Below are positions 28,717 to 32,029 of a DNA stretch of 64,000 bases, piece after piece. Position 1 is the stretch's first letter. The number at the start of each line of letters is the position of its first letter. The stretch comes from a virus: the IMG/VR virus record IMGVR_UViG_3300042546_000155; one strand, written 5' to 3'. The position numbers were made by a program, and so were the translations under genes. The notes beneath the pieces were generated by a model. The model saw nothing but the letters and a program-made list of their open reading frames with translations. It searched no databases and had not been told where the DNA came from.

Positions 28717-29193
28717 TCAATACTCTAGACGCTCCTGATTGCACTCAAAGGTATACCAACCTTCGGCACGAAAAGCATCGATGATACGGTGACGATCTTC
28801 AAAGATAGCACCGACTTTATATTCAGGATTAGCAGCAAGCCAATCCTTGATAATGTGAACCTTCAACTTGTCATCGTCTTCACGGTTACCACCGGGACGC
28901 ATATATAGGTCTTCATTCTCAAACGGATAATCGATATGACGACGAAGCCATTCTAAAGAGACTTCACGAAAACGCTCATCACGACCAGTCACAACGATAA
29001 TCTTATCACCTAGCATCTTACCACGGTCAAATGCAAGAGCATGGAGAACATCTAGAACTGCCTGATAAGGTGTATCCTTATCTTGTGCAGCAAAGAACTC
29101 ATCCCAATTCTTGTTACCGTTCCGTAGATGATCCCAACGGTGATGCACATTTGCCAGAGTGTTATCGATATCAAATACCCAAAGCTTTTTCAT
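28717..29193 (-). CDS. HAD phosphatase, like the 3'-phosphatase domain of T4 PseT (Pnkp)
   Basis: FDIDNTL, VTGR, LYMR...D...K, FEDR. Confidence 0.85.
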   Translation of the reverse strand: MKKLWVFDIDNTLANVHHRWDHLRNGNKNWDEFFAAQDKDTPYQAVLDVLHALAFDRGKMLGDKIIVVTGRDERFREVSLEWLRRHIDYPFENEDLYMRPGGNREDDDKLKVHIIKDWLAANPEYKVGAIFEDRHRIIDAFRAEGWYTFECNQERLEY

Positions 29194-29222
29194 TAGTTCC
29201 GTTTCCTTTCTCATTATGTCTA

Positions 29223-29251
29223 ATAATAACACACCGAAAACGGAATGTCAA
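29223..29251 (-). promoter_or_regulatory. Sigma70-like promoter TTGACAttccgttt-N-TATTAT
   Basis: 17-nt spacer. Confidence 0.65.
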
Positions 29252-31115: not shown

Positions 31116-31232
31116 AAAAACTTGTAAGTAGAAGAAACGCTCCACGGTTATATGTGGATACTTAATGCTAATGTGCGAACCAAAAGCATGTTCTCCTCAG
31201 GTCTCGCATTACCCGAGTACCGTCCTTCATGT

Positions 31233-31307
31233 TGGTGCTGATAGTTGGGATCAAACCAACCTTTAAAGCCTTATGAGGACTCCTCGACATCTTGCCGACC
31301 TACCAGC
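31233..31307 (-). tRNA. tRNA-Met or Ile2 (CAT)
   Basis: Loop CTCATAA, CCA. Confidence 0.8.
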
Positions 31308-31313
31308 ATTATA

Positions 31314-31394
31314 TGGCCACCACGAGAGGAGTCGAACCTCTATTTACATCCAGTTACCTTACTCTCGGTTCGTAGCCGAGGGGGATACGTGGTG
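31314..31394 (-). tRNA. Non-canonical D-armless tRNA-Arg(ACG)-like RNA
   Basis: 7-bp acceptor, perfect anticodon arm CTCGG-CTACGAA-CCGAG, perfect T arm, CCA; D arm replaced by TATCCCC; 22-nt variable region. Confidence 0.7.
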
Positions 31395-31800: not shown

Positions 31801-31955
31801 ATTACTATTACGCCAACGGACTAGAGATAACCGATAGGCTCTCCTATCACCGTTCAGCCAATTTTATGCAAGAATCGAACTTGCTCCGGATCAATTGCAA
31901 CCGTGTTACTGTCAACGTTTCGAACCGCAATCTAATCCGTTGGCGTAATAGTAAT
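31801..31955 (-). ncRNA. 155-nt RNA closed by a 20-bp perfect (25-bp with one G-U) stem and containing a T-arm hairpin
   Basis: ATTACTATTACGCCAACGGA/TCCGTTGGCGTAATAGTAAT; inner GCAAG-TTCGATT-CTTGC. Confidence 0.6.
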
Positions 31956-32029
31956 GGAGGGCTGCCTCGGAATCAAACCGAGTCCTCAAGGATTTGCAGT
32001 CCTGTGCCTTATCATCCGACCCGCAGCCC
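31955..32029 (-). tRNA. tRNA-Cys(GCA)
   Basis: Loop CTGCAAA, U73. Confidence 0.87.

What the first reader, a model, noticed from the sequence alone, without database searches (positions are those of the whole stretch)
31314..31394. D-armless tRNA-Arg(ACG) with a D-loop-like sequence moved into the variable region
Seen: perfect acceptor, anticodon and T arms and CCA, but only UAUCCCC where the D arm should be. The 22-nt variable region contains AACUGGAU, identical to the D-loop of the phage's normal tRNA-Arg(TCT), including G18 G19 A20. UAUCC could also pair with GGAUG. Known: A20 is the main ArgRS identity element. Inference: a topologically rearranged tRNA that may still be charged, or a decoy for anticodon nucleases or TadA.
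Basis: partly seen in the sequence, partly recalled or inferred. Interest (0 to 1): 0.75.

Follow-up and report, generated by a model that had tools for sequence, protein, structure and literature searches.

The report
Phage arginine tRNA with rewired core
This 81-base phage gene is very probably a working arginine tRNA with no ordinary D hairpin: one D-stem strand and the D loop lie after the anticodon arm, a non-cloverleaf layout that over a hundred phage sequences share, tRNA finders miss, and no paper I could search describes.

Summary
On the minus strand, 31394..31314 has a perfect 7-bp acceptor stem, G73 and CCA. It also has an anticodon arm identical to that of E. coli tRNA-Arg(ACG) and a canonical T arm. 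Seven bases stand where the D arm should be, and 22 bases lie between the anticodon and T arms. ARAGORN and Rfam's tRNA model miss it.

It is not a one-off. Pattern scans and a covariance model found more than 100 copies (71 distinct sequences aligned) in phage contigs and four cultured phages. In cellular assemblies it occurs only inside phage-like tRNA arrays.

All three stems covary. A short helix also links the 5' linker to the first bases of the long region, wrapping round the anticodon arm, and it shows compensatory changes. The D-loop-like stretch with GGA follows this helix.

Members carry almost only arginine anticodons. They replace the canonical gene of the same anticodon: only 1 of 64 arrays has both.

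Best reading (about 0.75): a chargeable tRNA-Arg that reads CGU, CGC and CGA. Expression, inosine-34 and charging were not shown. This scan noted the same family earlier on other genomes. I found no published description.

The parts
31388..31394 (-). acceptor stem, 5' strand (RNA positions 1-7)
   Evidence: 7 of 7 pairs with 31318-31324. All 7 pairs covary across 71 family members.
31381..31387 (-). 7-nt linker U8 A9 U10 C11 C12 C13 C14. C11 and C12 (31384, 31383) form the 5' strand of the D-stem analogue. C13 and C14 are a spacer.
   Evidence: U8 and A9 are invariant in 71 sequences. C11-G38 and C12-G37 are 100% paired in 26 short-form members, with GC and UA replacements.
31364..31380 (-). 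anticodon arm: 5-bp stem and loop CUACGAA, anticodon ACG at 31371-31373
   Evidence: Identical in all 17 bases to the E. coli argQ anticodon arm. The stem covaries.
31359..31363 (-). 5-nt connector AGUAA between the anticodon stem and the D-stem analogue (the first two bases may act as positions 44 and 45)
   Evidence: Conserved as AG-A/U-AA, but both scan patterns required this motif. The role is inferred.
31356..31358 (-). 3' strand of the D-stem analogue: G37 and G38 pair with C12 and C11; U39 faces U10
31348..31355 (-). relocated D-loop-like stretch AACUGGAU (equivalents of A14, A15, G18, G19 and A20)
   Evidence: Same 8-mer as the D loop of the window's tRNA-Arg(UCU). GGA is kept in 50 of 51 members found by a pattern that did not require it.
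31342..31347 (-). connector GUAAAU leading to the T stem. The final AU is invariant (a U48-like partner for A15 is inferred).
   Evidence: A52 and U53 are invariant in 71 sequences and were not required by either scan pattern.
31325..31341 (-). T arm: 5-bp stem and loop UUCGACU
   Evidence: All 5 pairs covary and 100% of cells are paired.
31318..31324 (-). acceptor stem, 3' strand
31314..31317 (-). discriminator G73 and encoded CCA
   Evidence: Most family members encode CCA.

Best explanation
This is a working elongator tRNA-Arg(ACG) of a T4-like phage with a permuted core. The chain runs: acceptor strand, U8 and A9, then the strand that normally forms the 3' half of the D stem, then the anticodon arm. 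After that come the strand that normally forms the 5' half of the D stem, the D loop (with G18, G19 and A20), a short connector, the T arm and the acceptor strand. The two D-stem strands therefore pair around the anticodon arm instead of closing a hairpin in front of it. In this copy the pairs are C11-G38 and C12-G37. The GG of the relocated loop can still dock on the T loop, so the usual L-shape is kept with a different chain order (inferred). The RNA would be cut out of the polycistronic array transcript and deaminated at A34 by host TadA. Host ArgRS would charge it through A20, C35, G36 and G73, and it would read CGU, CGC and CGA. All of these steps are inferred. What is shown: the sequence anatomy, the conservation and covariation, the restriction to arginine anticodons, and the replacement of the canonical gene.
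For: (1) All three standard stems are perfect here and covary across 71 distinct members: 95% of cells paired, and 0 of 500 shuffles reach the observed score.
(2) The helix that brackets the anticodon arm has support. In the 38 longer-form members its third pair is Watson-Crick in 38 of 38, with all four pair types (AU 17, CG 14, GC 5, UA 2). Members found by the covariance model, independent of my patterns, carry GC/GC, UG/CA, CGG/CCG and CG(A)/(U)CG versions. In 26 short-form members like this one, the register C11-G38, C12-G37 is 100% paired with compensatory changes, against 92% for the neighbouring register.
(3) U8, A9, the AA that opens the relocated loop, GGA, the AU before the T stem, and the T-loop bases are conserved.
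(4) The bacterial arginine identity set (A20, C35, G/U36, A/G/U73; PMC9976931) is present. The anticodon arm equals that of E. coli argQ.
(5) In an anticodon-free scan, 63 of 65 distinct members carry arginine anticodons (ACG, UCU, UCG, CCU).
(6) Only 1 of 64 arrays with a rewired ACG/GCG gene also has a canonical ACG/GCG gene, against 5 of 8 arrays whose rewired gene has another anticodon (Fisher p = 2e-5). The window has no canonical Arg(ACG).
(7) CGU, CGC and CGA make up 58% of arginine codons in the window's ORFs.
(8) The gene sits in register in the tRNA array, with a 4-nt and a 6-nt spacer and an encoded CCA.
(9) The E. coli translation machinery accepts even a tRNA with no D arm at all (PMC11551756).
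Against: There are no data on expression, processing, modification or charging. Scans for an inosine signature (G at position 34) found only two unrelated GCG members and nothing for this sequence. In this subtype the bracketing helix is only two G-C pairs, and its register rests on three informative relatives plus XacN1. RNAalifold does not predict the helix, and nearest-neighbour energies mildly disfavour it (-20.6 against -22.0 kcal/mol for the three stems alone). My scan patterns required part of the conserved motif, so the invariance of those columns is partly by construction. The L-shape is inferred, not modelled. One phage (A3Wally) carries both the canonical and the rewired ACG genes.
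Confidence: 0.75

Rival explanations
1. It is a decoy or sponge rather than an adaptor. The RNA would present a genuine tRNA-Arg anticodon arm and acceptor end to soak up a host anticodon nuclease, TadA or ArgRS, without taking part in translation.
For: The anticodon arm is identical to that of a bona fide tRNA-Arg(ACG). Phage tRNAs are known to counter tRNA-targeting defences (PMC10264068, PMC11464382, PMC11555353). A PNKP-phosphatase-like gene lies inside this tRNA array, which hints at conflict over tRNA cleavage.
Against: A decoy need not replace the canonical gene, yet only 1 of 64 arrays carries both. A decoy would not need CCA, the discriminator, A20, a perfect T arm and the conserved core bases all at once. 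The family spans four arginine anticodons that complement the canonical sets. CGU is the window's most used arginine codon.
Confidence: 0.12
2. It is a functional tRNA that is truly D-armless and Y-shaped, like mitochondrial tRNA-Ser(AGY). The long 3' region would serve another purpose, such as a protein-binding or ArgRS-recruiting tail, and would not rebuild the D stem and elbow.
For: Thermodynamic and alifold predictions give only three stems. In this subtype only two G-C pairs can be drawn for the extra helix. A D-armless tRNA can work in E. coli (PMC11551756).
Against: The bracketing helix shows compensatory changes in several independent forms. U8, the AA, GG and a canonical T loop are conserved, and these bases make the elbow and core contacts in ordinary tRNAs. 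Mitochondrial D-armless tRNAs have lost them.
Confidence: 0.1
3. It is a decaying tRNA pseudogene: a one-off deletion or rearrangement with no function.
For: Gene finders do not call it.
Against: The same architecture occurs in more than 100 loci and 71 distinct sequences, with compensatory changes in every stem. It is found in phages of Actinomycetota and Pseudomonadota and in marine and freshwater T4-like phages.
Confidence: 0.02

Closest known systems
Canonical bacterial and phage tRNA-Arg(ACG), e.g. E. coli argQ (Rfam RF00005)
   Same: It has a 7-bp acceptor stem, a discriminator and CCA. The anticodon arm is identical in all 17 bases to argQ. The T arm is canonical. A D-loop sequence with GGA is present, and so is the arginine identity set (A20, C35, G36, G73).
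   Different: There is no D hairpin. The 5' D-stem strand and the D loop come after the anticodon arm, so the secondary structure is not a cloverleaf. It scores below the RF00005 threshold and ARAGORN does not find it.
Mitochondrial D-armless tRNAs (mammalian mt-tRNA-Ser(AGY), nematode mt-tRNAs; PMC7609411, PMC12221289)
   Same: A short linker of 5-8 nt replaces the D arm between the acceptor and anticodon stems.
   Different: Those tRNAs have lost the D loop and the elbow contact, have degenerate T loops and short variable regions, and need adapted partner proteins. This RNA keeps GG, a canonical T loop and the core bases, and adds a 22-nt segment that restores the missing strand and loop.
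Engineered D-armless mini HisT in E. coli (PMC11551756)
   Same: It shows that bacterial aaRS, EF-Tu and the ribosome tolerate a tRNA without a D hairpin.
   Different: Mini HisT is artificial, lacks any D-loop substitute, and needed a pnp mutation to accumulate. That paper states that all known bacterial tRNAs are cloverleaves.
Circularly permuted or split tRNA genes (Cyanidioschyzon merolae, Nanoarchaeum; PMC3728597)
   Same: The order of tRNA segments in the gene differs from the canonical order.
   Different: In those genes the permutation is undone by processing, and the mature tRNA is an ordinary cloverleaf. Here the 5' and 3' acceptor ends are in normal order, there is no bulge-helix-bulge site, and the permutation would persist in the mature RNA.
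Class II tRNAs and tRNA-Sec (long variable arm; RF01852)
   Same: There is a long segment between the anticodon and T arms. tRNA-Sec is the best Rfam hit, though a weak one.
   Different: In this copy the long segment forms no hairpin of its own. The acceptor and T stems are 7 and 5 bp, not 8/5 or 9/4. The D hairpin is absent.

Membership tests
tRNA (class I cloverleaf, Rfam RF00005) | 7-bp acceptor stem, discriminator base, 3' CCA | tested here: met
   7 of 7 pairs, G73, encoded CCA. The stem covaries.
tRNA (class I cloverleaf, Rfam RF00005) | 5-bp anticodon stem and 7-nt loop with U33 and a purine at 37 | tested here: met
   Loop CUACGAA. U33 and A37 are invariant in 71 members.
tRNA (class I cloverleaf, Rfam RF00005) | 5-bp T stem and 7-nt T loop of the UUCRANY type | tested here: met
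   Loop UUCGACU, 5 of 5 pairs. 100% of cells paired across the family.
tRNA (class I cloverleaf, Rfam RF00005) | D hairpin between positions 9 and 26 | tested here: not met
   Only 7 nt separate the acceptor and anticodon stems.
tRNA (class I cloverleaf, Rfam RF00005) | Score at or above the family's gathering threshold; detection by tRNA finders | tested here: not met
   No RF00005 hit at 29 bits or more and no ARAGORN call. Five relatives also go unreported by RF00005.
tRNA (class I cloverleaf, Rfam RF00005) | Core and elbow bases (U8, A14, R15-Y48, G18, G19, T54-A58) that build the L-shape | tested here: inconclusive
   Candidate bases for each are present and conserved, but in permuted order. 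The contacts themselves are inferred.
Bacterial tRNA-Arg identity set (PMC9976931) | C35, G/U36, A/G/U73 | tested here: met
   C35 and G36 in anticodon ACG, and G73.
Bacterial tRNA-Arg identity set (PMC9976931) | A20 in the D loop | tested here: inconclusive
   An A follows GG in the relocated loop (31349), and GGA is kept in 50 of 51 members where the scan did not require it. Whether ArgRS sees it as A20 cannot be tested here.
TadA substrate (A34 to I34) | tRNA-Arg(ACG) anticodon stem-loop | tested here: met
   All 17 bases match the E. coli argQ anticodon arm.
TadA substrate (A34 to I34) | Observed inosine (read as G) in RNA-derived sequence | tested here: inconclusive
   Scans for G34 versions gave only two unrelated GCG members with no A34 twins.
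Mitochondrial-type D-armless tRNA | Loss of the D loop and the D/T-loop contact; reduced T loop; short variable region | tested here: not met
   GG, a canonical T loop and a 22-nt region are all retained.
Permuted or split tRNA gene processed to a cloverleaf | 3' half encoded before the 5' half, with a bulge-helix-bulge processing site | tested here: not met
   The acceptor strands are in normal order, and the neighbouring tRNAs abut at 4 and 6 nt.
tRNA-Sec (RF01852) | Score above threshold; 8/5 or 9/4 acceptor/T stems; UCA anticodon | tested here: not met
   23.6 bits against a cut-off of 47; 7/5 stems; anticodon ACG.

The most novel reading that the evidence does not exclude
The rewiring is an arms-race adaptation and not a neutral oddity. 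The permuted tRNA-Arg keeps the 3D shape that ArgRS, EF-Tu and the ribosome read. It escapes something that reads the canonical chain order or gene sequence. That could be a tRNA-Arg-directed defence nuclease of the host, a nuclease the phage itself uses against host tRNA-Arg, or homing endonucleases that target canonical tRNA genes. The phage would then keep arginine decoding while canonical tRNA-Arg is destroyed.
Probability: 0.2. Interest if true: 0.93.

Novelty: new variant of a known kind. Interest (0 to 1): 0.82.

Why it matters
Textbooks and recent papers state that every bacterial-type tRNA is a cloverleaf (PMC11551756). A natural, widespread tRNA family with a different chain topology, most likely the same 3D shape, would be the first exception outside organelles.

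It would show that the L-shape does not require the cloverleaf connectivity. It would give tRNA engineers a new scaffold. It would also explain why phage tRNA sets often appear to lack Arg(ACG): annotation pipelines miss these genes.

The family makes an open question directly testable, namely what aaRS, RNase P, TadA, EF-Tu and defence nucleases actually read in a tRNA. Cultured phage-host pairs are available for this (Microbacterium phage A3Wally, Streptomyces phage Jay2Jay, Xanthomonas phage XacN1, Mesorhizobium phage Cp1R7A-A1).

Tried and rejected
It is the MFE for this sequence alone (z = -1.05) but is not conserved and not compensated.
(2) The register C12-G38, C13-G37 for the bracketing helix in this subtype. 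It is broken in 4 of 52 cells, whereas C11-G38, C12-G37 is never broken.
(3) Inosine evidence. One metagenome scan and one IMG/VR scan for G34 versions gave only L139 and L153. Both are GCG members of other phages with no A34 twin, so they say nothing about editing.
(4) The whole-genome check for a second Arg(ACG) gene. No genome is held for this window, so absence is shown only for the 64-kb window, which contains the whole tRNA array.
(5) A systematic link to homing endonucleases. GIY-YIG or HNH genes lie near the rewired gene in only about 14 of roughly 110 loci, and none is adjacent here.
(6) Rfam families for the element. There is only a sub-threshold tRNA-Sec hit.
(7) Literature searches for a prior description found none.
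(8) RNAalifold and nearest-neighbour energies neither predict nor favour the short bracketing helix.

Full report
WHAT IS THERE. On the minus strand, 31394..31314 encodes an 81-nt RNA. It has a 7-bp acceptor stem with no mismatch, G73 and an encoded CCA. Next comes the linker UAUCCCC, then a 5-bp anticodon stem with loop CUACGAA (anticodon ACG). A 22-nt stretch follows, then a 5-bp T stem with loop UUCGACU. The gene lies inside a minus-strand array of 25 ARAGORN-called tRNAs. It is 4 nt after tRNA-Gly and 6 nt before the next tRNA-like gene. ARAGORN and Rfam's tRNA model at its gathering score both skip it. The best Rfam hit is tRNA-Sec at 23.6 bits against a cut-off of 47. The 8-mer AACUGGAU in the long stretch is the same as the D loop of the window's ordinary tRNA-Arg(UCU). 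The anticodon arm matches E. coli argQ, tRNA-Arg(ACG), at all 17 bases.

IT IS A FAMILY. BLAST against cultured phages found an unannotated relative in Mesorhizobium phage Cp1R7A-A1, with compensatory changes in all three stems. Two pattern scans of IMG/VR followed, one fixed on the ACG loop and one free of the anticodon. They gave 112 and 88 loci. From these I extracted 71 distinct full-length members (alignment A1). One IMG/VR contig (L034) carries a copy identical to this one. A covariance model built on A1 scores the window's element 85.8 bits and no other window sequence above 31.5. It also confirms members in Microbacterium phage A3Wally, Streptomyces phage Jay2Jay (anticodon GAU), Xanthomonas phage XacN1 and the Mesorhizobium phage. 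All of these are unannotated. In one genome per prokaryote species, the pattern found 13 places. Seven are real members (model scores of 63 bits or more), and where flanking sequence is available they lie beside other tRNA genes or inside dense, phage-like tRNA arrays.

One caveat applies. My patterns required parts of the motif (CC or CCC before the anticodon stem, and AG.AAGG after it). The invariance of those columns in A1 is therefore partly by construction.

STRUCTURE. Across A1 the acceptor, anticodon and T stems are 95% paired, with changes on both sides in 17 of their 17 pairs. None of 500 shuffles and no slid register comes close. A fourth, short helix joins the linker to the bases just after the AGNAA connector, so it brackets the anticodon arm. 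In the 38 longer-form members its outer pair is Watson-Crick in all 38, with four pair types (AU 17, CG 14, GC 5, UA 2). Members found by the model and not by my patterns carry other versions of the same helix: GC/GC, UG/CA, CGG/CCG, and CG(A)/(U)CG in an 83-nt class. The window's copy belongs to a shorter form, one base less after GG. In 26 such sequences the register C11-G38, C12-G37 is paired in every cell, with GC and UA replacements. The neighbouring register breaks in four cells. XacN1 has A at position 13, which fits only the first register. This register rests on few informative sequences.

It forms in full in only 10 of 71 members, and the variable positions are not compensated. RNAalifold predicts only the three long stems. 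Nearest-neighbour energies do not favour the 2-bp helix. Its support is therefore comparative only.

MAPPING TO A NORMAL tRNA (inference). In a cloverleaf, bases 22-25 run straight into 26 and the anticodon stem. Bases 10-13 continue the stack on the other side, after base 43. In this RNA the linker bases C11 and C12 take the place of the 22-25 strand and lead into the anticodon stem. After the anticodon stem come AG (like positions 44 and 45) and then G37 and G38 in the place of positions 10 and 11. The D-loop sequence with AA, GG and A follows (like 14, 15, 18, 19 and 20). An invariant AU then leads into the T stem (U48-like). In effect, segment 10-21 has been moved from before 22-43 to after it. 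The new junctions join positions that are neighbours in the folded core, so the L-shape could be kept. U8, A9, the AA, the AU and the T-loop bases were free in the scans and are invariant or nearly so.

FUNCTION. The bacterial arginine identity set is A20, C35, G/U36 and A/G/U73 (PMC9976931). This RNA has C35, G36, G73 and an A after GG. GGA is kept in 50 of 51 members found by the pattern that did not demand it. In the anticodon-free scan, 63 of 65 distinct members carry arginine anticodons (ACG 43, UCU 14, UCG 5, CCU 1), plus one GAU and one UAC.

The rewired gene stands in for the canonical one. Among arrays of 8 or more tRNAs, 1 of 64 with a rewired ACG/GCG gene also has a canonical ACG/GCG gene. 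The figure is 5 of 8 for arrays whose rewired gene has another anticodon (Fisher p = 2e-5). Canonical UCU, CCU, UCG and CCG genes are common beside rewired ACG genes. The loci are partial and not independent. The window itself has canonical Arg(UCU) but no canonical Arg(ACG). In the window's ORFs, CGU, CGC and CGA are 37%, 11% and 10% of arginine codons and AGA is 30%. The two phage Arg tRNAs thus cover the phage's main arginine codons. E. coli's translation machinery accepts even a fully D-armless tRNA (PMC11551756).

I conclude, at about 0.75, that this is a working tRNA-Arg. It would be deaminated to I34 by host TadA and charged by host ArgRS.

WHAT IS NOT SHOWN. Expression, end processing, inosine and charging are all unshown. 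A metagenome scan and an IMG/VR scan for G34 versions found only two GCG members of other phages, with no A34 twins. I could not reproduce that here. No whole genome is held for the window.

WHY REWIRED. This is unknown. The phage is T4-like, with UvsX, gp41-type helicase, DNA polymerase and primase. A PNKP-phosphatase-like gene sits inside the array, which hints at tRNA damage and repair conflicts. In A3Wally an HNH gene separates a canonical Arg(ACG) gene from a rewired one. Homing endonuclease genes lie near the rewired gene in about 14 of roughly 110 loci, but not here. Escape from a nuclease that reads the canonical chain or gene is an attractive idea, at about 0.2, but it is untested.

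NOVELTY. Six full-text searches found no description. A 2020 review of non-canonical tRNAs does not mention phages. A 2024 paper states that all known bacterial tRNAs are cloverleaves. Earlier agents of this scan reported the same family on other genomes, and my analysis agrees with them. It is a tRNA by every feature except the D hairpin, so I class it as a new variant of a known kind.

Noticed in passing
window 31958-32029 (-): tRNA-Cys(GCA), Rfam tRNA 40.4 bits, missed by ARAGORN. With it, the array covers all 20 amino acids.
   Followed up: partly
window 31233-31307 (-): A second CAU tRNA-like gene directly after the rewired Arg gene. It has G at position 8, a D loop without GG, and T loop UUUGAUC. 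ARAGORN misses it and it scores below the Rfam threshold. The same gene follows the rewired Arg gene in relatives L014, L070, L072, L086, L094 and L107.
   Followed up: partly
window 31801-31956 (-): A 156-nt highly structured element inside the tRNA array. It has a closing stem of about 25 bp and an internal T-arm-like hairpin. MFE is -61.3 kcal/mol, z = -6.8, and no Rfam family matches. It may be a Y-RNA-like or tRNA-like module.
   Followed up: partly
window 28717-29232 (-): An ORF of 171 aa inside the tRNA array matches the polynucleotide kinase PNKP phosphatase domain (HAD_PNKP, E = 5e-15). This suggests tRNA repair.
   Followed up: no
window 31116-31232 (-): A 117-nt stretch between the CAU tRNA-like gene and tRNA-Met with no tRNA or Rfam assignment. 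The only hit is a chance-level Zeta-pan match.
   Followed up: no
L001 4605-5067 (Mesorhizobium phage Cp1R7A-A1): An unannotated GOLLD RNA (193.5 bits) with an embedded tRNA-Leu lies about 0.5 kb after that phage's rewired tRNA-Arg.
   Followed up: no
L185 2518-3074 (Microbacterium phage A3Wally): A canonical tRNA-Arg(ACG), an HNH endonuclease gene and a rewired tRNA-Arg(ACG) lie in a row. This is the only array of 64 with both forms. The record's tRNA labels are misread: ARAGORN calls Arg(ACG) where the record says Thr(acg).
   Followed up: partly
L099 6288-6370 and 6376-6458; L089 1539-1621; L038 6031-6113; L062 10041-10123: A third, 83-nt class of rewired Arg tRNAs (UCU and UCG anticodons). 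The bracketing helix is CG(A)/(U)CG and the linker is 8 nt. These were found only by the covariance model (44-48 bits).
   Followed up: partly
L007, L015, L017, L023, L029, L061, L062, L089, L096 (rewired genes): A subgroup has an extra covarying hairpin inserted after the GGA of the relocated loop, giving 92-94 nt genes. This amounts to a true variable arm on top of the rewired core.
   Followed up: no
L007 3277-3472, L015 8437-8633, L089 7204-7405: manA RNA motifs (Rfam RF01745, 58-62 bits) lie inside the same phage tRNA arrays.
   Followed up: no
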